32,000 nt of DNA, taken from Halomicronema hongdechloris C2206 (GTDB lineage: Bacteria > Cyanobacteriota > Cyanobacteriia > Phormidesmidales > Phormidesmidaceae). The position numbers were made by a program, and so were the translations under genes. The stretch spans positions 5,160,001 to 5,192,000 of the forward strand of contig NZ_CP021983.2 in NCBI RefSeq assembly GCF_002075285.3, read 5' to 3'. The notes beneath the pieces were generated by a model. The model had not been told where the DNA came from. It saw only the letters and a program-made list of their open reading frames with translations, and searched no databases. Each line of letters opens with the position of its first letter. Position 1 is the first letter of the stretch. Below are positions 11,086 to 32,000 of the stretch, one piece after another.

Positions 11086-11312
11086 TTACCAGCGCCAATG
11101 CCGCCGCCGCGAAAGTCACCATAGGCCCTCCGGTTGGGTAGCGGCACCCACTGGCCGCCGCGATAGAGACCAGAAATACGAGTGCCGCGGCGAGACCAAT
11201 AGAAGGGTTGGGTTTCTTGGCCTAATCGTAGGGCCGCGACTTGGGTATAGCTGCCGTAGATGGCCAGCAAGGCGATGACATAGGCGGCGAGGGCGGCAAC
11301 TTTAGGCAGCAT
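11082..11312 (-). CDS. Small single-TM protein translationally coupled to the SpeE-like gene
   Basis: 76-aa ORF with a TM helix (VAALAAYVIALLAIYG) and a Gly/Arg-rich tail (GDFRGGGIGAGK). Its stop overlaps the SpeE-like ATG by 4 nt (ATGA). Confidence 0.6.
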   Translation of the reverse strand: MLPKVAALAAYVIALLAIYGSYTQVAALRLGQETQPFYWSRRGTRISGLYRGGQWVPLPNRRAYGDFRGGGIGAGK

Positions 11313-11482
11313 AGGAGTCTCCTTAGAATCGAACTGAAAGATGATTTGCAGAACACCTAAACACTAGTCAGAACAGGGTTTAGAAACTTTTCAGAGACAT
11401 TGTCAGTGCTCAGGCAAGATGGCTAGACGTTTTGACAGAGCCTGCTTTGAAGACCTTGTAAGATGTCCTGTGCCAATTAGCG

Positions 11483-12469
11483 TTAGGTGCGTAGGCGAAT
11501 GATTTCCGTAGGCTGTAAGGTGCGCACCCCTTCCTTGACAGCCAGGTAGGTATAGTCCACCGGGCCATCGGGCATCACTTCCACAGAGAAGCCATAGGAA
11601 CCGCGCGGCTCTAGGACCAAGTCTAGGCTGACATGGCCCTTGGCACTGTCGATCTTGCCGTCTTCCCGGCGAAAGGTCAGGGGCACGGATAGACGGCGGC
11701 TGTAGATCTGCTCGCCATAGCCATCTTTAATAATCAGATGCGCCTGTAATTCCCGGGGAGAGGTTTCGTCTGATATCACATCGATGTTAACTCGCACTAG
11801 CTTGTCGGCACCGCCCAGGGTGGCCCGCCCGGCCACATCGCTATCATTGGCCCGCTCTGAAACCACCTTGCGGCCTGATTTGCCCACGGCCAGGCTGGTG
11901 ATCAGGGCGATGACCAACACCCCGAAAAAGCCCACCCATAGGAAACGACTGTCAATGACTCCGTCTCGCACCGTGACCTCGAAGGACACGGGCTGGGCTA
12001 GGGGTTGACCACCGGTGCGGCCCTGCTCTAAGACGGTAATGGCTAGGGTAATGGGCTGATCGATGCTGGCTCGCCGAATATCGAAGCGCCCTTTTAGGTC
12101 TTGTTCTGACCAAGTGCCGCTTTCTCCGTCTTCCCGCCAGATGCCAGATTCTCGCCAGGCTTGTTTGATGCCAGAGGCCAGGAGATTATTTTGGCTGTCG
12201 AACACCTGTACCTCGAAGGTGAGCCAGGTATTTTTAGGTAGGCGGGCCCGGGTATCGATGCGAAGGGCCCCCAGCCCTCCCCGGGGTTGTACTGCTTCCA
12301 GACGAGTGGTCTCTTCTGGGGAGACCTGTACGGTGGTGTTCAACAGCCGGCGGGATAAGAAGGGGGAGACTACCACTGCGATCGCAAGTATCCCCAAGGC
12401 GCCTAGAGCAGCCAGGGGGGACCAATCCGTAAAACGGCGAGTGCGGTAAGGTTGAACATCAACCGGCAT
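11483..12469 (-). CDS. Uncharacterised two-TM membrane protein with two beta-rich extracytoplasmic-looking domains
   Basis: 328-aa ORF with TM1 (LAALGALGILAIAVVVSPF) and TM2 (FLWVGFFGVLVIALITSLAV), each followed by a ~130-aa beta-strand-like region. First gene of the minus-strand cluster. Confidence 0.75.
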   Translation of the reverse strand: MPVDVQPYRTRRFTDWSPLAALGALGILAIAVVVSPFLSRRLLNTTVQVSPEETTRLEAVQPRGGLGALRIDTRARLPKNTWLTFEVQVFDSQNNLLASGIKQAWRESGIWREDGESGTWSEQDLKGRFDIRRASIDQPITLAITVLEQGRTGGQPLAQPVSFEVTVRDGVIDSRFLWVGFFGVLVIALITSLAVGKSGRKVVSERANDSDVAGRATLGGADKLVRVNIDVISDETSPRELQAHLIIKDGYGEQIYSRRLSVPLTFRREDGKIDSAKGHVSLDLVLEPRGSYGFSVEVMPDGPVDYTYLAVKEGVRTLQPTEIIRLRT

Positions 12470-21821: not shown

Positions 21822-22136
21822 GTGGTTGACAAAACTGATTTGTTCGACAAGGCGGCTCCGGTCGCCCTCAAAATCTGGCTGGCGTTTCTGCTGATCTTCG
21901 TAGTTCTGGGCTATCCGGTGCTGGCCAGTATCCTTTTTGGTGCGATCGCAGGTATGGCTGGGGGCATGGTCTCGGCCTGGTGGGCCACCCCTGGAGGAGA
22001 ACCTATCCCCGATGCCAATACGCCCTTGCGGCGGGTGGGACGGCGGCTGAAACAAGGCCAAGAACAGCTGCGGCGCCTGCCTATGCCCTTCGGGAGTCCG
22101 CGGCAGCGGCAGCGCTATTCTCGACCGCGCCGTTAG
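21822..22136 (+). CDS. Hypothetical small membrane protein with basic tail
   Basis: 104-aa ORF with a GTG start, two hydrophobic helices (IWLAFLLIFVVLGYPVLASILFGAIAGMAGGMV) and an Arg-rich C-terminus. It ends 8 nt before the YdcF start. Confidence 0.5.
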   Translation: MVDKTDLFDKAAPVALKIWLAFLLIFVVLGYPVLASILFGAIAGMAGGMVSAWWATPGGEPIPDANTPLRRVGRRLKQGQEQLRRLPMPFGSPRQRQRYSRPRR

Positions 22137-22144
22137 AGCCCTCC

Positions 22145-22933
22145 ATGTTTCTGCTGCTGTCTAAACTGTTGCCGCTGCTGCTCTATCCTCTGGGGTTGGC
22201 CTGCCTATTGTTATTAGTGGCCTTGGTGTTGTTGTGGCGGCGACCACGGTGGGCTGCCGGTGCGATCGCAACCTCCTTAGCCCTATTATTCATTAGCAGC
22301 AATAGTTGGGTGGCCGATCGATTCCTGCAATCCCTGGAATGGCAACATCTTCCTAGTGAGCTGCCCAACGCCGACGCCATTGTAGTGTTAGGCGGGGGAA
22401 TGCGTCCCGCCAGTTCCCCCCGAGCCTGGGTAGAAGTATCAGAAGCGGGCGATCGGGTTCTGCACGGTGCTCGTCTTTACCTGGCTGGTAAAGCCCCCTG
22501 GCTGATCCTCAGTGGTGGCCGCATTCCCTGGTTAGATGGCGGCGGTGCTCCCGAATCATCCGATATGGCTGCCTTGGCCACCGCCTTAGGGGTGCCCGAG
22601 GAAGCCATTCTGCAGGATCCCACCTCCCTCAACACCTATCAAAATGCCATCAATGTCAAGGCCCTACTGCAGACCTATAGCCTAGAGCGGGTGTTACTGG
22701 TCACCTCAGCCCTGCATATGCCTCGGGCCCTGGCCCTCTTTCGCCATCAAGGCATTGATGCCGCGCCTGCCCCTACAGACTTTCTCCTGTCCAAGGCCCG
22801 CCTGCAGACAGCCCCCCAGTGGCAAGCCCACCTGGTGAATTTCTTTCCCGACGCCCGCTACCTCCATGAAGTCACCCAAGCCCTTAAGGAGTATCTGGGG
22901 CTGCTGGTCTATCGCCTGCGGGGGTGGCTTTGA
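22145..22933 (+). CDS. YdcF/ElyC-family (DUF218) protein
   Basis: Has N-terminal TM helices, a DAIVVLGGG block and the TSALHMPRA block typical of DUF218. The start is placed at ATG 22145 (MFLLLSKLL...). The upstream ORF extension overlaps the previous gene. Confidence 0.85.
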   Translation: MFLLLSKLLPLLLYPLGLACLLLLVALVLLWRRPRWAAGAIATSLALLFISSNSWVADRFLQSLEWQHLPSELPNADAIVVLGGGMRPASSPRAWVEVSEAGDRVLHGARLYLAGKAPWLILSGGRIPWLDGGGAPESSDMAALATALGVPEEAILQDPTSLNTYQNAINVKALLQTYSLERVLLVTSALHMPRALALFRHQGIDAAPAPTDFLLSKARLQTAPQWQAHLVNFFPDARYLHEVTQALKEYLGLLVYRLRGWL

Positions 22934-23091
22934 GGGGGAGGACGGAGGGCGGAGAGCGGAGGGCGGAGGACGGAGGGCGGAGAGCGGAGAGTAAAGAGTG
23001 AAGAGTGAAGGGTGAAGGGTGAAGAGTGAAGAGTGAAGAGTGAGGGGTGAAGGGTGAAGAGTGATGGGGTGATGGGGTGATGGGGAGTGAG
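22934..23091. repeat. Heptanucleotide tandem array (STRR-like): 19 in-phase 7-mers, then 8-mers
   Basis: Starts on the base after the ydcF-like stop. Eight units of RRCGGAG (gggggag gacggag ggcggag agcggag ...) are followed by about ten units of RGTGAAG, then gggtgatg x3. By hand-phasing, 22934-23066 is exactly 19 x 7 nt. Confidence 0.9.
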
Positions 23092-23264
23092 TAGCGTGGG
23101 TCATTTTACCTAGGCGGGGGAAATTATGAGTGGCCAGAGAAGGACCCACGGGGGAAAGAGAGGACGGAGGGCGAAGGAAAGTGATGAGTTTTGAGTTTTG
23201 AGTGAATGGTTTGGCTCCCTGTCAAACAGTGGTTGGGCGGGAGAGTAGGTCGATAGCGGATAGA

Positions 23265-23464
23265 GGGTAGGGGCGCGGTTGCCGCGCCCAATGCAGAAAA
23301 CTCCTCCGGAGCCGCTTCGCGAACACTACAAGCGGTTTGCCCTGGTCGTCAGAGTCCGAGGGGATCTCGTTCCCCTCGGGTGAGTACCCCGAGCGACACG
23401 ATTAAGCCTGGTCTTATCGAGGTCTATCGCCGCTGACCAACAAGCCCTGCTGCAGGGGTCAGGG
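23265..23464 (+). repeat. Modular hairpin-rich dispersed repeat, copy C (modules 1-X-3-2-4'')
   Basis: Module 1 is identical to copy A apart from 1-2 nt (hairpin 23271-23289). The extra X segment has the CTCCGGAG palindrome and a CCGCTT...AAGCGG hairpin. Module 3 carries the flipped hairpin loop (23356-23379). Module 2 is CGATTAAGCCTGGTCTTATCGAGGTCTATCGCCGCTGA. The copy runs into the stop codon of the DUF928 gene. Confidence 0.85.
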
Positions 23465-24190
23465 TAGAAGGGTCAGGGGCGTAGTTGCTGCGCCTAGGAA
23501 AGGCTGCTCGGCGATCACCGCCAGGCCCACAGACTCTAACAACTCTTGCCAGCGGGCTTGTAGCTCTGGATCCTCCGGATCAGCCATTTGCAGCTCGGCT
23601 AGGGTACCCACAGCATCGAACCAAACGCCGTGGCTAGCGTAGAGGCCAACCTGTTCAGAGCGATTGGCGGTAGCCAAGGCAGCTGCCAGATCATCTTCGG
23701 GGGTTATCCGATGTACCCAGCCATCGACCCGTAGGTCCCCGCGGCGGTTGTTGGGGTTGCAGATGATTGCCACGGACCATTGATAATCTTGACCGATTTC
23801 GAGGGCAGGCAGGCCACTGTGCTGCGGCAATGAGACACTGGCAATGCCGGCCTCATTAGCCACACTTAGGGTGCTGCTATAAATCAGTTGCCGGTCCCCT
23901 TCTGGATTAGCTTGATAGAGGCTGAACTCAACAAAGCGGGCCTGGCTGCGAGGCATGTACCAGAAAAAGGTGGGATAGGCCTCGGTGGTTAAGCCTAGGT
24001 TGGTGTCCGGCAGTAGGGCCACTAAACGACTAGGGCGACCCAATACACAGCCCCGAGTCGCGGCACCTTCTCGCCGACCGGGCAACCCTCGATTGGGTGG
24101 CTGAAAGGGTTCGGCCCAGGCCAGAGGTGCAACCGCCATGCTGCTAAGCCACAAATAGCAGACAAGTCGAGCAATGGAGAGGTGAGTCAT
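23459..24190 (-). CDS. DUF928-domain secreted protein
   Basis: Signal peptide (LVCYLWLSSMAVAPLAWA) followed by the DUF928-like core PPNRGLPGRREGAATRGC...LVALLPDTNLGLTTEAYPTFFWYMP. Confidence 0.8.
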   Translation of the reverse strand: MTHLSIARLVCYLWLSSMAVAPLAWAEPFQPPNRGLPGRREGAATRGCVLGRPSRLVALLPDTNLGLTTEAYPTFFWYMPRSQARFVEFSLYQANPEGDRQLIYSSTLSVANEAGIASVSLPQHSGLPALEIGQDYQWSVAIICNPNNRRGDLRVDGWVHRITPEDDLAAALATANRSEQVGLYASHGVWFDAVGTLAELQMADPEDPELQARWQELLESVGLAVIAEQPFLGAATTPLTLLP

Positions 24191-24408
24191 GGGCTATGCC
24201 CCCGGTGTAACAACAGAGTAGACAAGTGCACCCAAAACGCTTGATTATGACTTAGACGGCGAAGCAGCCAGAATTGCCTCGAAGGGACTTTAGTCTAGCT
24301 CACCCATAGTGTTCCTGCTCATAGCAAATCCAAGGTGGGACTAGTCGTTATCCGTTGGGTGACCACGACCGCTGGATGGAGCCGAGATGTATTAATGACG
24401 GAGATGCC

Positions 24409-24993
24409 ATGATGGCTCGATCGCTACTGATGATGACCCTGGTAGGCATTGGCTTGATGGCAACCATGCCGATCCTGGCAGGACTGGACCGGCCATCCGT
24501 GGCTGCGGACCAATCGACTGGCAATGATGCAGCCGACTCAGGGTCTCCTGAGTTGCAGACCCATGTGGAGCCGGGACAGTTCCAACTGCGATTTCCGCTG
24601 GCTTGGCAGGTAGAACAGCATCAGGATGGCTCTATTTCTATTACCAACCATGGAACAGATGATCCGGAACGAGCCTCCCAAGCCACTGATGTCCTCACCG
24701 AAGTCCGTCTCGTGCAAGAACATCCTCAGGACTATGTGCCTCAGGCGATTGAAACTATTGCCGAGAATGGATATCAGGTGATTCATTATCGTCCAGTGGT
24801 CGTAGATGAGCGCTCGGCCTTGCGACTGTGGATGGCAGAATTACCGGACGATCTAGCCAATGCCATGACCACCTATGTGGGCTATGCCAGCTACGGCACT
24901 GCCGTGATTACTAGCTACTATGGGGAGCCCACTGCCGAGGGTGAGGCGCTGATTGAGCAAGTCCATGACTCGTTTCAGTTGGTCTTCGACTGA
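24409..24993 (+). CDS. Hypothetical secreted protein
   Basis: Signal-like N-terminus (MMARSLLMMTLVGIGLMATMPILAG) followed by an acidic ~160-aa domain. Divergent from the DUF928 gene. The ORF opens at 24355, but the ATG-ATG at 24409 gives a proper signal peptide. Confidence 0.65.
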   Translation: MMARSLLMMTLVGIGLMATMPILAGLDRPSVAADQSTGNDAADSGSPELQTHVEPGQFQLRFPLAWQVEQHQDGSISITNHGTDDPERASQATDVLTEVRLVQEHPQDYVPQAIETIAENGYQVIHYRPVVVDERSALRLWMAELPDDLANAMTTYVGYASYGTAVITSYYGEPTAEGEALIEQVHDSFQLVFD

Positions 24994-25074
24994 TAGGTGA
25001 TGGTGGTAAGGGAGCCTACTAATCGGGCGTGACACCCCTGTTACAGTGGGAGACAACGCATTCAAGATAGTAGT

Positions 25075-25797
25075 GTGAGCCAAGTTCTCATGGTGGTGCA
25101 TCAAGCCACCTCTGATCCAGGCCTGGTAGGGCAGCAATTGCGGCAGCGGGGCTATGGCTTGGATATGTGCTGTCCGGCCGAGGGAGAGCCCTTACCGCAG
25201 GATCTAGAGGCCTATGAGGCCGTGGTGGTCTTCGGCGGCCCCATGAGTGCCAATGACGATGACACCCTGCCATTTATTCGGCAGGAATTGCACTGGATTG
25301 AGCGGATACTGACAACAGACACTCCATTTTTGGGTATCTGCCTGGGGGCGCAACTGCTGGCCAGAACCCTGGGAGCCCAGGTTTATTCCCATCCGCAGGG
25401 CCTGAGAGAAATTGGCTATTTCCCATTGCAGCCGACGGTGGCTGGCCAGGCCTATTTTGCTGACCCGATGGCGGTATATCACTGGCATCAAGAGGGGTTT
25501 GAGTTACCTCGCCGAGCGATGTTGCTGGCTCAGGGCAATTGGTTTCCCCATCAGGCCTTTCGCTACGGCCAGGCCTATGGATTGCAATTTCACCCAGAAA
25601 TCACCACCGAGTTGATCCACACCTGGACGACTAAGGGAGCCGACCAACTGACTTTGCCCGGTGCCCAGCCCCGTGATCGCCAGCTAGCTGGCCACCGCCA
25701 ACATGGTCCAGGTGTGGCCCATTGGCTGCAGGGATTTCTGGAGCGTTGGCTGATCTCAGATAAGGCGAGCCGTGAACAAGATCGTCTCATCGCCTGA
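25075..25797 (+). CDS. Class I glutamine amidotransferase-like protein
   Basis: Nucleophile elbow FLGICLGAQLLA and the His-Glu pair in LQFHPE. 240 aa. Last GC-rich gene before the compositional break. Confidence 0.85.
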   Translation: MSQVLMVVHQATSDPGLVGQQLRQRGYGLDMCCPAEGEPLPQDLEAYEAVVVFGGPMSANDDDTLPFIRQELHWIERILTTDTPFLGICLGAQLLARTLGAQVYSHPQGLREIGYFPLQPTVAGQAYFADPMAVYHWHQEGFELPRRAMLLAQGNWFPHQAFRYGQAYGLQFHPEITTELIHTWTTKGADQLTLPGAQPRDRQLAGHRQHGPGVAHWLQGFLERWLISDKASREQDRLIA

Positions 25798-26018
25798 GAT
25801 TACGGCAAATCCCAATTGGGTAAAGCACAGTGCCAAGATCTCTCCAACCCCCATTACCAAGATACCGCTAGCGTTTTCAGCAAGCCTTATATGATATGAA
25901 GTGCTATTGCCGCTTACTTATCTCCGAGATGTAGACTACAACACTTACCATTTGTGGCGAAGTTCGGTTAAAGTCTGAGGTATAACCAAGCTACAGTCGA
26001 AGCACATAGGTCAATTTT

Positions 26019-26402
26019 ATGAAGGCAAGGGCGCTGATTGTCTACGGTGCAATTACAATCTCGCTTATATCAGGGGTGGCTCTGGGCAAGCGGGCACTAG
26101 GCGATCCTGTTTGCTATCTTGAATTTCAAGACGGAGAGGTGATGGATTTGGAAGAACTCTGTGGCACTAGAACACCTAGCACACCGGCTAACCCTCCGAT
26201 TGAACTAGGTGATTCAGAGACACGGGCTGCTATGGCAGCTACCGGTATCACGATAGAAGATATTCAGGAATTGCGGCAGATGGCGGCTCAAGATCCTAAT
26301 GCGGCAGCTGAACGTTTGAGGAATATTCTTTGTTCTCAAATGCCGGATGGTGAATGCACTATTTCACTGGCAGAGATCCATATTGACACTGGCTTAGACT
26401 AA
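26019..26402 (+). CDS. Small secreted four-Cys protein (orphan)
   Basis: 127-aa ORF with a signal peptide (MKARALIVYGAITISLISGVALG) and two Cys pairs (VCYLEFQDGEVMDLEELCG; LCSQMPDGEC). It stops 3 nt before the next ATG. Confidence 0.6.
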   Translation: MKARALIVYGAITISLISGVALGKRALGDPVCYLEFQDGEVMDLEELCGTRTPSTPANPPIELGDSETRAAMAATGITIEDIQELRQMAAQDPNAAAERLRNILCSQMPDGECTISLAEIHIDTGLD

Positions 26403-26405
26403 GTT

Positions 26406-27173
26406 ATGACACCTGCTGAACAGCGTCTTGGAGTGGAATCAACAGATCTAAATCAACAAGTTGTTTTAGTCCGAAAGAAAGGTTCGATAACAATTTCCTT
26501 CCTTTTGCAAATTTTATCTAATAAATACTCAATCAATATTTTTTCTCCTGACTCAATAGCATCAAATGACTATTGCTACTTGGTCATTTACAGCTTAAAG
26601 GGTCACGATTGGATATTAGTTCAAGAGTTTGGCCCCTGTGCTAGTGATGATATTGGAGATGAGAGTCTGGCAAGAGAGTTTTCTTGTAGAATAACTACTC
26701 CCGTATTTGTTTTCGAGCAAAGTGACACAGGCCTTTTCTTAAAATATTCTATCTGGGAAAGCTGCTTTGTTAAGGAAAAATTCGAGTTCCGCGAAGAAGG
26801 ATTTTTTGGCAATGAAGATGTAAATTTGAGTAACTTTAACCAGCAACCAAATATTAGTAGATTGTTGCTCATGAGTGATGATTTAGTAGAGGAATATGGT
26901 GGCAATATTCCATTTGAACATAATTGTATCGTTTGCTCTTCTTTTAGAAGAGTATCTGCAAACGAAGTTGGTAATCCATACAAATTTGTTTCTAATACCT
27001 TTGAGAAAGCAGGTGCGTATATTCCTGGATTAGAGTGGAGCCTGAGCAGGAGTAAAAGTAAAAGACAAAAACTAATCGATTCCTTATTTTCTATTGGTTC
27101 TTCAATTTATCTTAGTGATTTCCGAGAAATAGTCTTTACTAAAGTTAATCAGAGCCTAACAGGAGAGTCTTAG
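26406..27173 (+). CDS. Orphan cytoplasmic protein
   Basis: 255-aa ORF with no TM segment or signal peptide, very AT-rich. Its stop TAG shares a base with the GTG start of the next ORF. Confidence 0.65.
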   Translation: MTPAEQRLGVESTDLNQQVVLVRKKGSITISFLLQILSNKYSINIFSPDSIASNDYCYLVIYSLKGHDWILVQEFGPCASDDIGDESLAREFSCRITTPVFVFEQSDTGLFLKYSIWESCFVKEKFEFREEGFFGNEDVNLSNFNQQPNISRLLLMSDDLVEEYGGNIPFEHNCIVCSSFRRVSANEVGNPYKFVSNTFEKAGAYIPGLEWSLSRSKSKRQKLIDSLFSIGSSIYLSDFREIVFTKVNQSLTGES

Positions 27174-27919
27174 TGATACTTACAAAAATACTGCTTTCAA
27201 GGTTATTAGTTACTTTGTCTACTCTAGTACTTGTTGAGGCATTTCTTAATATAGAAGTAAAAGCTCAAACTATTCCACATAGTACTATTATTGATCTTTC
27301 GTGTAGCGATGATACTCCAGTTACTAGAACACAAATTGAAAGTATTCGAGCTCGACCAGGAATTGTCTACAAAGATGCAACGACACTAGAGCTTGCTTTT
27401 GAGGCTTTTGCACTAGAAAGCGCTTATAAGCAAAAGTCGGACGATATTTTTTATTCTCCGCGAGCCGATAAAAATGTAATGCCTGATGCGGTCACAACGT
27501 TCATCTATATTAACTTGAATCCGTTTAGATTCAGAGTTTACTATCCTGGTGTGTTCATTGATGCCAAATCAGGAAGGAGCAGAATTATGCTCAGTTCGGG
27601 AAACAACCAAACACTAGGATTTATTGATCACTTAGCAAATGTCGCCCAAATCGGTAGAGAGGGTTTTGTACTACCACAACTCAGGTATCTCACAGTTGGC
27701 GATACTGTTATCGGTAACAGTACAATTGCTGAGGCTCAAAAAGAAGGAGTTATGCTGATGCAGCGCATCGCCTGTAATAATCCTGGTGGGGCCATCGGCG
27801 TTGATGAATTCTATATGGGTAGGCTAGTTACGTTAGAATCGGGTCAGGTTTTTAGCGCTGGAAGACCGGGGACAATGTTCAGAAACATTAATCCGCTACC
27901 TCCACCGAATCCTTATTAA
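27173..27919 (+). CDS. Orphan secreted protein with a PD...DxK-like motif
   Basis: 248-aa ORF with a GTG start and a signal-like N-terminus (LLSRLLVTLSTLVLVEAF). E73/E77/E82, P104-D105 and D130-A131-K132 are spaced as in PD-(D/E)xK folds, but this is a weak motif-level observation only. Confidence 0.6.
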   Translation: MILTKILLSRLLVTLSTLVLVEAFLNIEVKAQTIPHSTIIDLSCSDDTPVTRTQIESIRARPGIVYKDATTLELAFEAFALESAYKQKSDDIFYSPRADKNVMPDAVTTFIYINLNPFRFRVYYPGVFIDAKSGRSRIMLSSGNNQTLGFIDHLANVAQIGREGFVLPQLRYLTVGDTVIGNSTIAEAQKEGVMLMQRIACNNPGGAIGVDEFYMGRLVTLESGQVFSAGRPGTMFRNINPLPPPNPY

Positions 27920-28074
27920 GCCTACATGCCCATCTATGTCTTGATTCCTTGATTTATATTTCCGAGCGTTTTTTTAAGCAATGTTGTTAGGCGTCATAGC
28001 ACCAAGCTAGTTTAGTTTGCTTTTGACGTCCAGTGAAGAAACTAATCAGCGCAACAGACTGCAAAGATGTTAGG

Positions 28075-28190
28075 ATTAAAGCTCCATTAGTCTTCCATAG
28101 GTATGCATTACTTTTTTGCCTGACGGTCATTGCAATCAATCTTTGCGCTGTTACCCGAGGTGGTATTTGAACCCAACCCAAGATATTATG
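28075..28190. repeat. Decayed duplicate of the beta-helix/Wzy divergent 5' junction
   Basis: My hand alignment to 30060-30175 is ungapped, with about 98 of 116 identities. In the Wzy frame a Trp codon (tgg) has become a stop (tga) at 28168-28170. Confidence 0.85.
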
Positions 28191-28449
28191 GAGTGGGCAC
28201 TGGTCTGGTAATGTAGGATGAACGCCGTTAAGCTTCATTGGGTAAGGGTTTTAGAAGTTTAGCGACCGATTGCCTCAAACCTTGGCTGGGTGAACGTTTG
28301 GGCAGGCCATCCCACTTTTAGAAACCAGTGCCAACCTTGATACCAGCAATCTCGATTTCTTCGTTCATGACTCCAACTTAGCGAAGCTTGCTACCTCCAT
28401 TCCCTAAGTTTCCTTTAATTTCCTGGGACGGTTATTGATCGGCTTACAC

Positions 28450-28482
28450 AAAAATCTGAACACTCTGATCTTCATTTCAGAT
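28450..28482 (-). terminator. Possible intrinsic terminator of the beta-helix gene
   Basis: On the minus strand: ATCTGAA, a 15-nt loop, TTCAGAT, then TTTTGTGT. The stem overlaps the stop codon and the loop is large, so support is weak. Confidence 0.3.
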
Positions 28483-30115
28483 TTATTATTTCAAAATTTA
28501 TATTATTTTCTAATTTTACATCAGATGAAAAATTTATGGCGTTGTCGCCTTTACTTACATTATTGCTGACAATGTTATGATTTCCTCCTAGACTGGCTTT
28601 AATCAAAATACTGCCGTTTAATATGTTTTGATTGATTTGTACACCATGCATTTGTCCAGGCTTCTGATTTGTGTCTGCATTCACGTATATTAATTCTGTG
28701 TCCGTGATGTTTGACAAAAGTTGATTACCAAGAATCATAACGTTCATAATATCAGGAATTTTGTATAGCCCAATGTAACTGTTGCCAACGTTTTGCTTAA
28801 TACTGACCCCTTTTACTTTTGTGCCTCCACAGCACTCTTGAATAAGAATCCCCTCACCATCAATGCTTTGATTTGAGGTATTACTAAGGAAATGTCGATA
28901 AACTTGGTAAGTATTTCCCTCTATAATGACATTCCAACCAGACCAATCAATCGCTCGGTTCTCATAAGTAATATTCGGTGGTATTCGATCTGAATCATTC
29001 AGATAAGGTGGTCCTAGTCCCCATCTATCTGTGTACCAGCGTTTATCGGCCTTATCAAGGACAATATTATCCTTAATAACTAAACCATCACCAGAAGCAT
29101 GAATACCAACACTCATGGTGTGATAAACCCAATTATTTCGAATTATAATCCTCTTCCTAAATAAACCCTTCTCTTTTTCAGGAGTTGCTAATGGCTCAAA
29201 GAGAATAGAGCCATTCTTAAAGCGGTTGACGCTAATGCCGTAATGATTAGTGTAATTAAAGGGAACCTTCCAGCCTTCTGCCAAAACTTCTACAGAGCCA
29301 TTCTTACGCTGTATCTGATAGTTATCTTGTTCAAAGCTGTCAGTAATATTATCGTTCAGACGATTATTTGCAATCAGGACATTACTCTTTGCTGTAACTT
29401 TGATATTGGCTGACAGCAGGTCAGAGAACCGTAGCCATGGCGACTGAAACTCAAGATTAGGGACATATGGGTTGGGTGTAGCTACATTGTTTTGGCGAAT
29501 GCCATAGATAACGATATTGCTATTCTGAGACTCGTCAATATTGTTTCCAAAAGTTACCGCAGCACGATTAATATCGAGATTAATCAACCCTATATTTCTA
29601 TCAATGTCTGGGTTCGTAGTTCTGATAGTTTTAAAGGCTGTCTTATTAGGTGTCCCCGTACCAGATTGAACAGGCTGATATTGAGGGAAAATTAATTTGG
29701 TCCGAGGTGAATAGCTATCATTTTTAGCATCTTGTAGTATTGGAGACGCTCCCCGTATTACAATACCTTCCTTCAAAACTAAGTCTTCTTCGAAGATGTA
29801 GGTACCTGCAGGTAAGAAAATAACTCCACCTCCTCGTGTGTAGGCAATATCCCGTGCCAAGTTAAAACGTTCTTGATCAGAACTTCCTGAAAAATCTTCA
29901 ATATTATATACACATGACCATGGCAAGGAGTTGGTCCAGCTATATTCAGGGTATTGGTGTGCAAGTGGATTGTTGGTTGGTCCACCAAGATAACTACCAC
30001 AGGCTGTGTCCTGGTATCCTATGCGACAGTTAATCAGCACAACAAACACGAAGACGAGTACTAAAGCACCTCTAATCTTCCATGTATATGCGTTGTTCTT
30101 TTGCCTCACGGTCAT
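28472..30115 (-). CDS. Secreted right-handed parallel beta-helix (PbH1 repeat, pectate-lyase-superfamily-like) protein
   Basis: Signal peptide MTVRQKNNAYTWKIRGALVLVFVFVVLINC. N-terminal cap block ARDIAYTRGGGVIFLPAGTYIFEEDLVLKEGIVIRG. Repeated coil motifs are present (NIVIYGIRQNNV; NVLIANNRLNDN; IIIRNNWVYH; LVIKDNIVLD; VIIEGNTY; VSIKQNVG; VMILGNQLLSN; VQINQNILNG; NIVSNNVSKG). The start is chosen at ATG 30115; the ORF is open up to 30490. Confidence 0.85.
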   Translation of the reverse strand: MTVRQKNNAYTWKIRGALVLVFVFVVLINCRIGYQDTACGSYLGGPTNNPLAHQYPEYSWTNSLPWSCVYNIEDFSGSSDQERFNLARDIAYTRGGGVIFLPAGTYIFEEDLVLKEGIVIRGASPILQDAKNDSYSPRTKLIFPQYQPVQSGTGTPNKTAFKTIRTTNPDIDRNIGLINLDINRAAVTFGNNIDESQNSNIVIYGIRQNNVATPNPYVPNLEFQSPWLRFSDLLSANIKVTAKSNVLIANNRLNDNITDSFEQDNYQIQRKNGSVEVLAEGWKVPFNYTNHYGISVNRFKNGSILFEPLATPEKEKGLFRKRIIIRNNWVYHTMSVGIHASGDGLVIKDNIVLDKADKRWYTDRWGLGPPYLNDSDRIPPNITYENRAIDWSGWNVIIEGNTYQVYRHFLSNTSNQSIDGEGILIQECCGGTKVKGVSIKQNVGNSYIGLYKIPDIMNVMILGNQLLSNITDTELIYVNADTNQKPGQMHGVQINQNILNGSILIKASLGGNHNIVSNNVSKGDNAINFSSDVKLENNINFEIINLK

Positions 30116-31406
30116 TGCAATCAACCCTTTCGCTGTTACCCGAGGTAGTATTTGGACCCAACCCAAGATATTATGTGTATTCGCTATTGTCATCCTGCAC
30201 CTTCTAATCCTCTTTAAGGAACGGCAGCCAATAAGGCGTCCTAACCAGTGGAAGTTACAAGTATTTGGTTGGCTGGCCTTACTGGCTTCAGGTATTATCT
30301 CAACCCTACTGAGTCCATTTCCTAGCCGTTCTTTCTTTGGCCATAGTATTACCGCTGATGGATGGCTGTATTGGTTATTAATAGCAGGCTTTGTACTCAC
30401 AAACAGCCTGGTTTTGAAGCAATATCCTCGTCTATTTCTCTGGCAGCTTAGAGGAATTCTAGTTGGCGCGACGCTGGTAGCATTAAGCATGTATCCCCAG
30501 TTTTTGAACTGGAAATTAGACTATACAGCTGATTCAGGACAACTTTGGCCTGGCACTGAACACGTATTGGCTACTGGCATCTATCAGGATCACCAGCCAG
30601 TTGGGTTATACTCGCATCGGGGTTACGCAAGCTTTGCCTTAGCCATTGCATCAGTTCTATCTCTGGTAGCCCTGAAAAAGCAATGGCTTTCTGCTCGAGT
30701 AGCACTTCCTTTGACTGCACTCCATGCAATAACGCTTAGTCTGGCTCGGGTCAGAGGTGCCATGCTTGCGATGCTTTTAGCCTGGCTCTGGCTCGCTTGG
30801 ACCACACCCCGGCGTCGGTCTACGCAGCAACTGATCATCGCTTTGAGCTTAATAGGCCTATTAAGTTTTGGTTGGACTACGATGGAGCGACGAGTTATCA
30901 ATGCTGATTTCTACGCTTCTACGCCATTCAGAGTAGCTCTCAAGCATTTTACCTCTGATAGAATATTTCTATGGCAGAAAGCTTGGCAAGGTATCCTGAA
31001 ACGCCCTTGGTTCGGTTGGGGCTTCAGCGGCTATTCCATTGCAGATACATACTATCTGTGTCCTGAGGGAACAGAACCAGTTATTTTAGAGGACTACTTC
31101 ACGCATTGTCAGCTAGAGACTGGTGAAACCGTTCAGGTTTCTGCCAAAGCAATTCATGCCCACAATGTTTTCTTAGACAAGTACATAGCACTGGGCGTAG
31201 TTGGAGCAAGCATCTACCTTGTTCTCATGAGCTACTATGCTTTAGCCGTACTTAAGGCCAAACCAGAGATATTAGCCTTGGTGATCACATATGCTAGCTA
31301 TATGCTTACCTGGTATGATTGTGGACAACTCAGTCATTTAGGTTGGTGGGCACTCAGCATTCAAACTAGTCTTCGGCACACTTCGGTTATTAATAACGAC
31401 CACTGA
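30006..31406 (+). CDS. O-antigen ligase / Wzy-like polytopic membrane protein
   Basis: 466-aa ORF with at least 10 hydrophobic helices, a periplasmic-loop-like segment and the HAHNVFLD block typical of Wzy_C domains. The start is GTG 30006 or ATG 30021. Confidence 0.82.
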   Translation: MSWYPMRQLISTTNTKTSTKAPLIFHVYALFFCLTVIAINPFAVTRGSIWTQPKILCVFAIVILHLLILFKERQPIRRPNQWKLQVFGWLALLASGIISTLLSPFPSRSFFGHSITADGWLYWLLIAGFVLTNSLVLKQYPRLFLWQLRGILVGATLVALSMYPQFLNWKLDYTADSGQLWPGTEHVLATGIYQDHQPVGLYSHRGYASFALAIASVLSLVALKKQWLSARVALPLTALHAITLSLARVRGAMLAMLLAWLWLAWTTPRRRSTQQLIIALSLIGLLSFGWTTMERRVINADFYASTPFRVALKHFTSDRIFLWQKAWQGILKRPWFGWGFSGYSIADTYYLCPEGTEPVILEDYFTHCQLETGETVQVSAKAIHAHNVFLDKYIALGVVGASIYLVLMSYYALAVLKAKPEILALVITYASYMLTWYDCGQLSHLGWWALSIQTSLRHTSVINNDH

Positions 31407-31599
31407 TATGCTCTCTAGGTGTCCCACTATCGCATGGGCACATGGATCTAGTTTCAAGGCTAACCATAAATCGCTTATCAGGTTTGATTCTGGCGTTAGT
31501 TAACTACTGAAGTAAGTGTATACTAGTTACTATGGTAGAAAAGTTGCGAATAAGTCTTACACTTATCCACCCCTAAGTCGCTAGATAGATAACTGTTTG

Positions 31600-32000
31600 A
31601 TGAGTCAGCACTTGTCAGATTCTGCTGCAACGGTTCAAGGATTGCTAAACCTTATCTTCTCAGAAGAAGAAGATATTGAAAATTTGCAGAATCAGTGCAT
31701 CTTAAATCAAGAAAAGTACGATCAGAAGGCATCCCTAGAGTTAGAATTTCATAGGAGTAAAGATGAAGTAGAAATCCCGGAAGACCAAAAAGAAATAGTC
31801 TGGTACCAAATTCGAAAAGAACTATCTGAGCTTCTGGATGAAATAAAACTACTGGAATATTCCATTACTTCTAAGCAGGAAATTATTGCCATTCTATGTG
31901 GCAGCATCCTCGAGATCGCGAAATATGGAATGATGGTTAATTATTCTAGATTAAGCGAATGTCCTGATGTAAGATTTATCGGAAAAGAGTCAATTAAAAA
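31600..32000 (+). CDS. Orphan ORF truncated by the window end
   Basis: Not in the supplied track. ATG 31600 (in-frame stop at 31582) is open for 133 codons to the window edge: MSQHLSDSAATVQGLLNLIFSEEEDIENLQNQ...ILCGSILEIAKYGMMVNYSRLSE. AT-rich like the rest of the island. Confidence 0.5.
   Translation, partial: MSQHLSDSAATVQGLLNLIFSEEEDIENLQNQCILNQEKYDQKASLELEFHRSKDEVEIPEDQKEIVWYQIRKELSELLDEIKLLEYSITSKQEIIAILCGSILEIAKYGMMVNYSRLSECPDVRFIGKESIK

What the first reader, a model, noticed from the sequence alone, without database searches (positions are those of the whole stretch)
25798..32000. Abrupt switch to a low-GC, HIP1-free accessory island
Directly after the glutamine amidotransferase stop (25797) the sequence changes character.
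- Spot-counted 60-nt lines fall from about 55-65% GC to about 30-45%.
- Codons become A/T-ending.
- HIP1 (GCGATCGC) occurs 14 times in the first 22.3 kb, but I see no copy in the last 6.2 kb.
- Gene content changes from housekeeping and conserved cyanobacterial families to orphans and surface-polysaccharide genes.

This combination is the classic signature of horizontally acquired DNA that has not ameliorated. I see no integrase, transposase, tRNA or direct-repeat boundary at the left edge. The right edge is outside the window, so the mobilisation mechanism is unknown.
Basis: partly seen in the sequence, partly recalled or inferred. Interest (0 to 1): 0.75.

Follow-up and report, generated by a model that had tools for sequence, protein, structure and literature searches.

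The report
Laterally acquired low-GC cell-surface gene island
The last 6.2 kb of this Halomicronema hongdechloris window is foreign, low-GC DNA inserted just after a housekeeping gene, carrying an uncharacterised cell-surface gene cassette that also occurs next to plasmid and transposon genes in other filamentous cyanobacteria: a well-supported but ordinary kind of genomic island.

Summary
GC falls from 56.2% to 41.1%, with a best-fit step at 25852. GC3 falls from 0.55-0.71 to 0.29-0.44. The tetranucleotide correlation with the core drops from 0.66-0.93 to below 0. All 14 HIP1 copies lie at or before 22269.

The source is Halomicronema hongdechloris C2206. Its nearest sampled relative keeps the flank in the same gene order but has an empty site: the amidotransferase gene is followed by a histidine kinase at normal GC. 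That relative carries part of the island elsewhere, beside an IS701-like transposase. There the shared genes have synonymous divergence of 0.17-0.24, against 0.58-1.43 for 13 core genes. This points to lateral exchange after the lineages split.

The island is a mosaic. It contains a Wzy_C membrane protein, an exported beta-helix carbohydrate-enzyme-like protein whose gene overlaps it head to head, and three orphan genes (A, B, C). The Wzy gene and the trio recur together in five contexts; the beta-helix gene is in three. In one community the set sits in a near-identical 7-kb unit with a MobA/MobL relaxase.

All homologues found are cyanobacterial. The cassette is low-GC wherever it is seen next to higher-GC host DNA, so low GC marks the mobile pool rather than recency. 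The right edge, the integration mechanism and the biochemical function remain unknown. This is a new member of a known kind.

The parts
25798..25899 (.). Left junction: about 100 bp that match neither the relative's empty site nor the relative's island copy.
   Evidence: blastn homology to the empty-site relative L086 ends at 25802. Homology to the island copy L081 starts at 25900. The maximum-likelihood GC change point is 25852. There is no tRNA or repeat here.
25900..25996 (.). Conserved left-end segment of the island.
   Evidence: 90% identical to L081 9769-9861, which lies between an IS701-like transposase gene and the Wzy gene in the relative.
26019..26402 (+). Orphan A: a small exported protein of 127 aa with an N-terminal hydrophobic segment and conserved Cys residues.
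   Evidence: No match in any family library. Weak homologues lie next to the Wzy gene in L081, L084, L090 and L093. Hydrophobic segment at residues 5-23. The whole block 25997-27901 is absent from L081.
26406..27173 (+). Orphan B: a 255-aa protein with no signal sequence, presumably cytoplasmic.
   Evidence: No family match. Weak homologues in L084, L090 and L093 (blastp E from 1.5e-4 to 7e-18 among themselves; alignment A5). No hydrophobic segment.
27173..27919 (+). Orphan C: an exported 248-aa protein with a PD-(D/E)xK-like motif set.
   Evidence: Homologues in L081, L084, L090 and L091. Only 43 representatives among 1.84 billion proteins. Confident model (pLDDT 87) with an alpha-beta-beta-beta-alpha-beta core. 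Conserved E/Q...PD...(D/E)xK...Q motifs. No significant PDB fold match.
27902..28190 (+). Displaced Wzy upstream region plus a remnant of roughly the first 150-170 bp of a Wzy gene (copy A).
   Evidence: 92% identical to L081 9870-10158, the relative's Wzy upstream region and start. Direct repeat of 28072-28190 with 30057-30175 at 84% identity. In alignment A2, L081 resembles copy A at its 5' end and copy B at its 3' end.
28472..30115 (-). Exported right-handed beta-helix protein, carbohydrate-enzyme-like (XM38_049370; 547 aa with the start proposed here).
   Evidence: Weak Pfam Pect-lyase_RHGA_epim match, E 1.2e-4 and below the cutoff. The 120 best homologues are at 48-58% identity, and every one that carries a taxonomic name is cyanobacterial. 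Full-length ones cover the longer N-terminus. Model pLDDT 88. Best PDB fold matches are AlgE4/AlgE6 epimerases, polygalacturonases, phage tailspikes and the RbmB lyase, at TM-scores normalised by query length of only about 0.2-0.4. Absent from L081.
30021..31406 (+). Wzy_C (O-antigen ligase family) polytopic membrane protein (XM38_049380, 461 aa). Its first 95 bp overlap the beta-helix gene head to head.
   Evidence: Pfam PF04932, E 5e-13, 49.5 bits against a cutoff of 31.7. At least 8 hydrophobic segments. All 66 homologues carry the Wzy_C domain, and all but one of the named ones are cyanobacterial. 93.5% nucleotide identity to L081 with dS 0.17. It shares a 90% cluster with P0001.
31385..31596 (.). 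212-bp insertion relative to L081, lying between the Wzy 3' end and the next gene.
   Evidence: Alignment A4. It adds six codons to the Wzy gene and separates two genes that overlap in L081. It contains the only terminator-like hairpin found in the region.
31597..32000 (+). 5' part of a 206-aa orphan gene (XM38_049390). The island runs on past the end of the window.
   Evidence: 92% nucleotide identity to L081 11368-11771, dS 0.24. It shares a 90% cluster with the L081 gene. The next L081 gene (191 aa) clusters with XM38_049400.

Best explanation
Window 25.8-32.0 kb is the left part of a laterally acquired, mosaic accessory island in the chromosome of Halomicronema hongdechloris C2206. It starts within about 100 bp after the stop codon of a conserved class-I glutamine amidotransferase gene. 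It continues beyond the window at least to XM38_049400, so it is roughly 7 kb or longer.

**Cargo.** The island carries a cassette so far found only in cyanobacteria:
- a Wzy_C (O-antigen ligase/polymerase family) membrane protein;
- an exported beta-helix polysaccharide-enzyme-like protein, whose gene overlaps the Wzy gene head to head;
- a fast-diverging trio: a small exported protein A, a cytoplasmic protein B, and an exported protein C with PD-(D/E)xK-like motifs.

**Origin (shown).** The cassette belongs to a low-GC, HIP1-poor gene pool. That pool is found next to plasmid, transposon and IS genes among filamentous cyanobacteria. Part of the island was shared with a related Halomicronema-like lineage well after the two lineages split.

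**Rearrangement (inferred).** After arrival the island was remodelled by block insertion and deletion. One such event appears to be recombination between a duplicated Wzy 5' end.

**Function (inferred, not shown).** The cassette most likely remodels a cell-envelope glycan or matrix polymer. This would change the surface seen by phages, grazers or neighbouring cells, which would explain its turnover. The integration mechanism at this site is not shown. No integrase, tRNA or flanking repeat lies in the window, so it was either recombination without a site-specific enzyme or an element whose mobility genes lie past 32000.
For: - **Composition step.** GC, GC3 and tetranucleotide usage all change at 25.80-25.90 kb.
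- **Source.** The amidotransferase is 100% identical to XM38_049330. Ten further core proteins match C2206 exactly.
- **Empty site.** The nearest relative has DUF928, a 193-aa gene and the amidotransferase, then 198 bp and a convergent 1013-aa histidine kinase. GC there is 0.53-0.62 and HIP1 is present. Genes on both sides of this site are recorded on one 499,083-bp contig.
- **More distant relatives.** The 15 with at least 1 kb of sequence after the amidotransferase gene show no comparable sustained fall in GC directly after it.
- **Different location.** The relative's island copy (L081-L083) comes from the same metagenome samples as its core contigs. Its flanks have a Halomicronema-like tetranucleotide signature, r 0.80-0.88. 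Its neighbours differ from those in the window and include an NF041680 IS701-like transposase, E 2e-169.
- **Age discordance.** dS is 0.17 for the Wzy gene and 0.24 for the 206-aa gene. Thirteen core genes give 0.58-1.43. No closer relative exists in the protein collection: 7 of 10 core proteins have no partner at 90% identity or more.
- **Mobile context.** A 7.0-kb unit at 99.8-100% identity holds a MobA/MobL relaxase, Wzy, the beta-helix gene, B, A and C. It sits in three different flanks that carry Tn3, resolvase and IS genes.
- **Shared foreign signature.** Cassette DNA from four hosts correlates at r 0.79-0.91 with itself and about -0.2 with the host DNA.
- **Mosaic structure.** Three blocks in the window are absent from L081, and a 119-bp direct repeat brackets the beta-helix gene.
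- **Protein assignments.**
Against: - The right edge lies outside the window, so the island's size, its second junction and any mobility genes are unseen.
- That L081 belongs to the same organism as the empty-site contigs is inferred from co-occurrence and composition. It is not shown by physical linkage.
- The trio block and the beta-helix block have no close relative (best 58% at protein level), so their time of arrival cannot be dated.
- The HIP1 gap alone is only marginally significant.
- There is no glycosyltransferase, flippase or sugar-nucleotide gene, so a role in surface glycans rests on two domain and fold assignments.
- More distant beta-helix homologues are ordinary chromosomal genes with host-like GC and HIP1 copies. 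The protein family itself is therefore not intrinsically mobile.
Confidence: 0.8

Rival explanations
1. This is an ancestral, vertically inherited surface-polysaccharide locus. It is kept AT-rich by selection or local mutation bias, and it was lost from this position in the relatives (differential loss, not gain).
For: The cassette is low-GC wherever it is seen next to higher-GC host DNA. All homologues are cyanobacterial. No integrase, tRNA or boundary repeat is present. O-antigen polymerase genes are commonly AT-rich in other bacteria (general knowledge).
Against: Synonymous divergence of the shared genes is 3-8 times lower than that of core genes. The relative carries its copy at a different locus and has an uninterrupted site here. 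None of the 18 more distant relatives has any island gene downstream of the amidotransferase. Near-identical copies sit in three different flanks with a relaxase.
Confidence: 0.07
2. This is a remnant of a prophage lysogenic-conversion module. A phage-borne O-antigen polymerase and a tailspike-like beta-helix depolymerase were left behind after the prophage decayed.
For: The beta-helix model resembles the HK620, Sf6 and Det7 tailspikes at fold level. Serotype-converting phages that carry wzy genes are known (general knowledge).
Against: No PHROG match for any island protein. No relative of either protein in 2.9 million viral contigs, although that scan finds close relatives only. No phage gene lies in any of the related contexts, which instead hold relaxase, Tn3 and IS genes. 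The tailspike matches are weaker than those to the alginate epimerases, and all TM-scores are low.
Confidence: 0.04
3. The segment is an assembly chimera or contaminant DNA joined to the Halomicronema chromosome.
For: The composition changes abruptly within about 100 bp, and there is no boundary structure.
Against: According to the protein records, the source is a single 5,577,845-bp record with consecutive locus tags across the junction, XM38_049330 to 049400. An independent metagenome assembly joins the same cassette DNA to Halomicronema-like flanks in three samples.
Confidence: 0.02

Closest known systems
Genomic islands detected by low GC, atypical codon usage and scarcity of HIP1 in cyanobacteria (for example Synechococcus elongatus PCC 7942; Delaye et al. 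2011, PMC3025956)
   Same: The same three signals coincide here: deviant GC, deviant codon usage and no HIP1. The segment is also absent from related sequences.
   Different: The donor pool here is cyanobacterial, not from outside the phylum. No island-type integrase or tRNA is seen. Lateral origin is additionally supported here by a synonymous-divergence contrast and an empty site.
Low-GC, hypervariable O-antigen or cell-surface glycan islands, such as enterobacterial O-antigen clusters and the cell-surface islands of marine picocyanobacteria (general knowledge)
   Same: It has a Wzy-family membrane protein, atypically low GC, block-wise mosaic structure, recombination scars and fast-diverging exported proteins.
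   Different: It is not a complete biosynthetic cluster. There is no glycosyltransferase, Wzx flippase, chain-length regulator or sugar-nucleotide gene. It does not occupy a fixed locus between conserved flanks: the relative holds it elsewhere.
Cargo modules of mobilisable plasmids or integrative mobilisable elements with a MobA/MobL relaxase
   Same: In one community the same gene set lies in a near-identical 7-kb unit with a MobA/MobL relaxase. That unit sits among Tn3, resolvase, IS and toxin-antitoxin genes.
   Different: No relaxase, replication or integration gene lies in the window. Whether one lies past 32000 is unknown.
Alginate-type beta-helix polysaccharide modifiers (AlgE4/AlgE6 C5-epimerases, alginate epimerase/lyase, RbmB lyase)
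   Same: Right-handed parallel beta-helix fold. The profile matches the AlgE4 N-terminal motif at E 3e-6. These are the best Foldseek matches.
   Different: TM-scores normalised by query length are only about 0.2-0.4 and identity is about 12%. Catalytic residues were not compared. This family has its own conserved Cys pattern and a signal anchor.

Membership tests
Genomic island (classical criteria) | Base composition and codon usage differ from the rest of the genome | tested here: met
   GC is 0.41 against 0.56. GC3 is 0.29-0.44 against 0.55-0.71. Tetranucleotide correlation with the core is below 0.
Genomic island (classical criteria) | Absent from the same site in closely related genomes | tested here: met
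   The nearest relative has an empty site, with the flanking genes placed on one 499-kb contig. No island gene lies downstream of the amidotransferase in 18 other cyanobacterial genomes.
Genomic island (classical criteria) | Inserted next to a tRNA or tmRNA gene | tested here: not met
   ARAGORN finds no tRNA or tmRNA anywhere in the window. The right edge was not seen.
Genomic island (classical criteria) | Flanked by direct repeats (att-like) | not testable with these tools
   The right junction lies beyond 32000 and the source genome is not in the contig collections. No repeat of the left junction occurs inside the window.
Genomic island (classical criteria) | Carries an integrase, transposase or other mobility gene | tested here: not met
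   None by Pfam or NCBIfam on the ORFs scanned. tblastn with a small panel of mobile-element proteins from related loci finds no remnant. This holds for the window only. Related copies sit beside an IS701-like transposase or a relaxase.
Wzy-dependent O-antigen or exopolysaccharide biosynthesis cluster | Wzy or WaaL-type polytopic membrane protein | tested here: met
   PF04932 Wzy_C, 49.5 bits against a cutoff of 31.7. At least 8 hydrophobic segments.
Wzy-dependent O-antigen or exopolysaccharide biosynthesis cluster | Glycosyltransferases, Wzx flippase, chain-length regulator and sugar-nucleotide synthesis genes | tested here: not met
   No such domain in any island ORF in the window, nor in the related cassettes in L081, L084, L090-L092 and L093.
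Prophage or lysogenic-conversion module | Phage structural, packaging or integration genes, or relatives in viral genomes | tested here: not met
   No PHROG match. No relative in the viral contigs. No phage gene in the related loci.
PD-(D/E)xK nuclease superfamily (orphan C only) | Alpha-beta-beta-beta-alpha-beta core carrying E, PD and (D/E)xK motifs on the expected elements | tested here: inconclusive
   The motifs F(E/Q)xFA, V.PD, (D/E)(A/V)K and Q..G.ID are conserved in 22 sequences, and they fall on the predicted helix and strands. There is no significant match to any Pfam family, PDB sequence or PDB fold.
Known anti-phage defence systems (PADLOC) | A match to any catalogued defence protein | tested here: not met
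   No match at E of 0.1 or better for six island proteins.

The most novel reading that the evidence does not exclude
The cassette (Wzy_C, overlapping exported beta-helix enzyme, small exported protein A, cytoplasmic protein B, exported PD-(D/E)xK-like protein C) may be one functional unit carried by mobile elements of filamentous cyanobacteria. In this reading it pairs remodelling of the cell surface with an exported nuclease and its cytoplasmic inhibitor. It would act as a barrier to incoming DNA or phage, or as an antagonism system, and so would be an uncatalogued kind of exclusion or defence module. The rapid divergence of the trio fits diversifying selection: 20-36% identity between contexts, against 51-92% for the Wzy protein. 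So does the presence of two unlike trio sets in and near the C2206 island.
Probability: 0.12. Interest if true: 0.6.

Novelty: new member of a known kind. Interest (0 to 1): 0.35.

Why it matters
- **For this genome.** It marks a genuine, relatively recently exchanged piece of accessory DNA in the model chlorophyll-f cyanobacterium H. hongdechloris. It also shows that gene flow occurs through a cyanobacteria-specific low-GC mobile pool.
- **For method.** Low GC and lack of HIP1 identify the mobile pool, not the date of transfer. Dating needed a synonymous-divergence comparison with the core genome.
- **For biology.** It defines a recurrent, uncharacterised gene set that travels with relaxases and IS elements and probably alters the cell surface. 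This is relevant to phage resistance, aggregation and the genetic tractability of filamentous cyanobacteria. The general phenomenon of a surface-related genomic island is well known.

Tried and rejected
- **Source contig.** Exact-sequence look-ups of window proteins failed. The single scan of genome contigs did not contain the source genome; its best hit was 64-65%. Nothing beyond 32000 could therefore be read.
- **Viral contigs.** Scans with the beta-helix and Wzy proteins found nothing.
- **RNA genes.** Rfam and tRNA scans were empty.
- **Orphan proteins.** Pfam at relaxed thresholds, NCBIfam, PHROGs and PADLOC gave nothing for the orphans A, B, C and the 206-aa protein.
- **Protein C.** Sequence and fold searches of the PDB gave no significant match.
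- **Literature.** A search on Halomicronema hongdechloris plus horizontal gene transfer turned up nothing on this locus. A search for a described cyanobacterial pairing of O-antigen ligase and pectate-lyase-like genes found no paper.
- **Mobile-element remnants.** tblastn with a small panel of mobile-element proteins from related loci, and with the relative's histidine kinase and GatC, found nothing in the window.
- **Rejected ideas.**
  - A donor outside the cyanobacteria: all homologues found are cyanobacterial.
  - A complete polysaccharide biosynthesis locus: the defining genes are absent.
  - The HIP1 gap as decisive evidence on its own: P is about 0.035, and the gap starts before the GC step.


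Full report
**1. The observation**

- The composition step is real and sharp.
  - GC is 0.562 over 1-25797 and 0.411 over 25798-32000. A single-step likelihood scan places the change at 25852, 55 bp after the stop of the amidotransferase ORF 25075-25797.
  - Third-position GC of the 19 ORFs to the left is 0.55-0.71. For the five ORFs to the right it is 0.29-0.44.
  - The tetranucleotide profile of 3-kb windows correlates with the core at 0.77-0.93 inside the core. It is 0.66 for the window that straddles the edge and -0.08 to -0.29 inside the segment.
- HIP1 (GCGATCGC) occurs 14 times against 0.59 expected from shuffles, and all copies lie at or before 22269.
  - The HIP1 gap alone is weak evidence. 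At the core rate, 3.4 copies are expected in 6.2 kb, so P(0) is about 0.035. The HIP1-free stretch also begins 3.5 kb before the GC step.
- The window holds no tRNA or tmRNA and no Rfam family. None of the ORFs scanned carries an integrase or transposase domain.
- tblastn with two transposases, a relaxase, resolvases and other mobile-element proteins from related loci finds no remnant in the window.

**2. Source and gene content**

- The amidotransferase is 100% identical to XM38_049330 of Halomicronema hongdechloris C2206, recorded on a 5,577,845-bp record. Ten further core proteins of the window are exact matches to C2206 proteins, including AspRS, L25, spermine synthase and an M16 protease.
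- The low-GC part encodes the following.

| Coordinates | Strand | Product |
|---|---|---|
| 26019-26402 | + | A, 127 aa, one N-terminal hydrophobic segment |
| 26406-27173 | + | B, 255 aa, no hydrophobic segment |
| 27173-27919 | + | C, 248 aa, one N-terminal hydrophobic segment |
| 28472-30115 | - | beta-helix protein, XM38_049370 |
| 30021-31406 | + | Wzy_C protein, XM38_049380, 461 aa, at least 8 hydrophobic segments |
| 31597-32000 | + | start of a 206-aa orphan, XM38_049390 |

  These assignments rest.
- Only two proteins match a family.
  - The Wzy protein matches PF04932 at E 5e-13, above the curated cutoff.
  - The beta-helix protein matches Pect-lyase_RHGA_epim weakly, at E 1.2e-4 and below the cutoff.
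- NCBIfam, PHROGs and PADLOC give nothing for any island protein.

**3. Is it absent from relatives?**

- The genome-contig collection did not contain the source. It gave 80 loci with the amidotransferase orthologue, the best at 64-65%.
  - In several cyanobacterial loci the small gene group DUF928, 212-aa gene and amidotransferase is kept. No island gene follows in any of them.
  - Of 18 cyanobacterial loci examined, 15 have at least 1 kb of downstream sequence. None shows a comparable sustained fall in GC directly after the gene, and HIP1 continues. A few (L023, L020) have lower-GC stretches further downstream.
- The protein search found a closer relative, P0068, at 80% identity.
  - On its contigs the amidotransferase is followed after 198 bp by a convergent 1013-aa PAS/GAF histidine kinase. 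GatC, a TPR protein, a GGDEF/EAL protein and EPSP synthase come next. GC there is 0.53-0.62 and HIP1 is present throughout.
  - blastn homology between the window and this relative ends at 25802, five bases after the stop codon.
  - The relative's genes on both sides of this site are recorded on one 499,083-bp contig. The site is therefore continuous and empty.

**4. The island exists elsewhere, in a different place, and is younger than the core**

- The Wzy protein has a 92%-identical homologue, P0001, on three JGI contigs (L081-L083). blastn aligns the window to L081 as follows.

| Window | L081 | Identity |
|---|---|---|
| 25900-25996 | 9769-9861 | 90% |
| 27902-28190 | 9870-10158 | 92% |
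| 30031-31384 | 10011-11367 | 94% |
| 31597-32000 | 11368-11771 | 92% |

- L081 also has a low-GC, HIP1-free patch from about 9.8 to 15 kb (GC 0.36-0.46), set between flanks at GC 0.51-0.61 that carry HIP1.
- Its neighbours differ from those in the window.
  - On the left is a 435-aa NF041680 IS701-like transposase (E 2e-169). Its 90% cluster has 112 members.
  - Further left are DJ-1, flavodoxin, SDR, HxlR and toxin-antitoxin genes. On the right are amidase, GerE and Rieske genes.
- These contigs come from the same samples as the relative's core contigs and empty-site contigs (3300023218, 3300023283). The L081 flanks have a Halomicronema-like tetranucleotide profile, r 0.80-0.88 with the window core, L094 and L086.
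- Synonymous divergence (Nei-Gojobori with Jukes-Cantor correction) differs sharply between island and core.

| Genes compared | dS | Nucleotide identity |
|---|---|---|
| Wzy | 0.17 | 93.5% |
| 206-aa gene (partial) | 0.24 | 92% |
| Ten core genes in the same order as the window | 0.58-1.24 | 80-89% |
| Three genes next to the junction | 0.85-1.43 | 76-79% |

- No closer relative of C2206 is present in the protein collection.
  - Seven of ten core proteins have no partner at 90% identity or more.
  - The three that do have partners pair with the 499-kb-contig organism.
- In contrast, the Wzy protein, the 206-aa protein and the next gene (191 aa, XM38_049400) all share 90% clusters with the L081 genes.
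- Taken together, the shared island DNA has a more recent common ancestor than the two genomes have. It also sits at different loci in them.
- The inference has one unproven link. That L081 belongs to the organism with the empty site rests on co-occurrence and composition, not on physical linkage.

**5. Mosaic structure**

- Relative to L081, the window has three extra blocks.
  - 25997-27901 holds the trio A, B and C.
  - 28191-30030 holds the beta-helix gene.
  - 31385-31596 is a 212-bp insert that adds six codons to the Wzy gene and separates two genes that overlap in L081.
- The beta-helix block is bracketed by a direct repeat, 28072-28190 and 30057-30175, at 84% identity.
  - Copy A (27902-28190) is the relative's Wzy upstream region plus roughly the first 150-170 bp of a Wzy gene.
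  - In alignment A2, L081 resembles copy A in the 5' part and copy B in the 3' part.
  - This fits a deletion of the beta-helix gene in the L081 lineage by recombination between the repeats.
- GC3 also differs between blocks, from 0.29 to 0.44.

**6. The cassette recurs and travels with mobility genes**

- All 66 Wzy homologues carry the Wzy_C domain. All but one of those that carry a name are cyanobacterial.
- The 120 best beta-helix homologues are at 48-58% identity. Every one that carries a taxonomic name is cyanobacterial.
- Full-length beta-helix homologues cover the longer N-terminus, which has a basic stretch followed by a hydrophobic stretch.
  - This puts the gene's start at 30115, so it overlaps the Wzy start at 30021 by 95 bp, head to head.
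- The divergent Wzy and beta-helix pair is found again in L090-L092 and L093.
- blastp shows that homologues of A, B and C accompany the Wzy gene in L081, L084, L090 and L091. L093 shows A and B within its 5.9 kb. Gene order and orientation vary.
- In sample ERZ25039505, a 7.0-kb unit (L090 7342-14305) is 99.8-100% identical on three contigs with different flanks.
  - It holds a MobA/MobL relaxase, Wzy, the beta-helix gene, B, A and C.
  - The flanks carry Tn3 transposase, resolvases, IS elements and toxin-antitoxin genes. One copy is split by an ISAZ013-type insertion.
- Wherever higher-GC host flank is visible (window, L081, L084, L090-L092), the cassette has GC of about 0.36-0.46 against flanks of about 0.5-0.6.
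- Cassette DNA from four hosts correlates at r 0.79-0.91 with itself, about -0.2 with the host DNA, and 0.6-0.8 with low-GC Oscillatoriales-like loci.
- More distant beta-helix homologues (45-55% identity, 14 metagenome loci) are ordinary chromosomal genes. Their GC is host-like, some contain HIP1 copies, and none has a Wzy gene or the trio nearby.
  - This suggests that the mobile pool drew on low-GC filamentous cyanobacteria.

**7. What the proteins may do**

- **Beta-helix protein.** The model is confident (pLDDT 88) and is a right-handed parallel beta-helix.
  - The best PDB fold matches are AlgE4/AlgE6 mannuronan C5-epimerases, an alginate epimerase/lyase, the adhesin PfbA, polygalacturonases, the HK620 and Sf6 tailspikes, and the RbmB lyase.
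  - TM-scores normalised by query length are only about 0.2-0.4. A profile search matches an AlgE4 N-terminal motif at E 3e-6.
- **Protein C.** It belongs to a small family, with 43 representatives among 1.84 billion proteins. Some members are fused to FG-GAP or VWA domains.
  - Its model (pLDDT 87) has an alpha-beta-beta-beta-alpha-beta core.
  - A 22-sequence alignment conserves F(E/Q)xFA on the first helix, V.PD at the start of a strand, (D/E)(A/V)K at the end of the next strand, and Q..G.ID on the following helix.
  - This is the motif pattern of PD-(D/E)xK nucleases. No Pfam family, PDB sequence or PDB fold match supports it, so it remains a hypothesis.
- **Missing functions.** No glycosyltransferase, flippase or sugar-nucleotide gene is present in the window or in the related cassettes. 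This is not a complete polysaccharide pathway.
- **Most likely role.** The cassette probably acts on a glycan that the host already makes, altering the cell surface or matrix.
  - The fast divergence of the trio fits diversifying selection on exported products: 20-36% identity between contexts, against 51-92% for the Wzy protein.
  - This functional reading is inference.

**8. Comparison with what is known, and verdict**

- Using low GC, odd codon usage and scarcity of HIP1 to flag recently acquired genes in a cyanobacterium is established practice (PMC3025956).
- Low-GC, mosaic, surface-related islands are a known kind (general knowledge).
- The segment meets the compositional and presence/absence criteria for a genomic island.
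  - It fails the tRNA and mobility-gene criteria inside the window.
  - Flanking repeats cannot be tested because the right edge lies outside the window.
  - The donor pool is cyanobacterial and associated with mobile elements.
  - Low GC is a lasting property of the cassette rather than a clock.
  - The content is an accessory cassette of unknown biochemistry rather than a polysaccharide synthesis locus.
- Interest is moderate to low. This is a clean example of an ordinary phenomenon, plus a recurrent uncharacterised cassette that may deserve experimental attention.

Noticed in passing
window 30021-30115: The Wzy_C gene (+ strand) and the beta-helix gene (- strand) overlap head to head by 95 bp. 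Each strand encodes a plausible N-terminus: a first transmembrane helix on one strand and a signal anchor on the other. The same overlap of about 77-80 bp appears in L090-L092 and L093.
   Followed up: partly
window 28472-30115 (XM38_049370): The public annotation gives 484 aa. Homologues of 545-600 aa align over a further 63 N-terminal residues, including the signal anchor, so the annotated start looks too far downstream. The C-terminus of this copy also lacks two Cys residues that are otherwise nearly invariant: SCHV is SSDV here, and the terminal PC is missing.
   Followed up: partly
window 22932-23085: A dense array of heptamer tandem repeats (GAGGGCG about 8 times, AGAGTGA 11 times, then GTGATGGG) lies in the gap between the DUF218 and DUF928 genes. 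A nearby 33-bp stretch (23266-23298) matches L081 20514-20546 at 94%, which suggests a small dispersed repeat in this lineage.
   Followed up: no
window 31385-31596: A 212-bp insertion relative to the close relative sits exactly at the Wzy stop and the next gene's start. It contains the only terminator-like hairpin found in the region (minus strand, 31570-31546). Whether it is a miniature mobile element was not tested.
   Followed up: partly
L084 9781-10000: The region upstream of the L084 Wzy gene, read on the opposite strand, still resembles the N-terminus of the beta-helix protein (38-43% over about 115-135 aa, partly inside the Wzy coding region). This looks like a remnant of a lost beta-helix gene. 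L084 also has two paralogues of protein A, at 59% identity, on either side of the Wzy gene.
   Followed up: partly
L081 8003-9310: An NF041680 IS701-like transposase lies directly left of the relative's island copy. Its 90% cluster has 112 members, so this IS is multi-copy in those metagenomes.
   Followed up: partly
C2206 beyond the window (XM38_049400 and onward), inferred from L081 12052-14662: The C2206 island probably holds a second, very different trio downstream of the 206-aa gene. XM38_049400 shares a 90% cluster with the L081 B-type gene. The L081 A-type and C-type genes have no partner in C2206 at 90% identity or more.
   Followed up: partly
window 21980-25797 compared with L086 and L007: Gene order just left of the junction already varies among relatives. 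A NUDIX gene precedes DUF928 in the nearest relative, while DUF218 precedes it in the window and in L007. This stretch of chromosome is therefore somewhat rearrangement-prone even outside the island.
   Followed up: no
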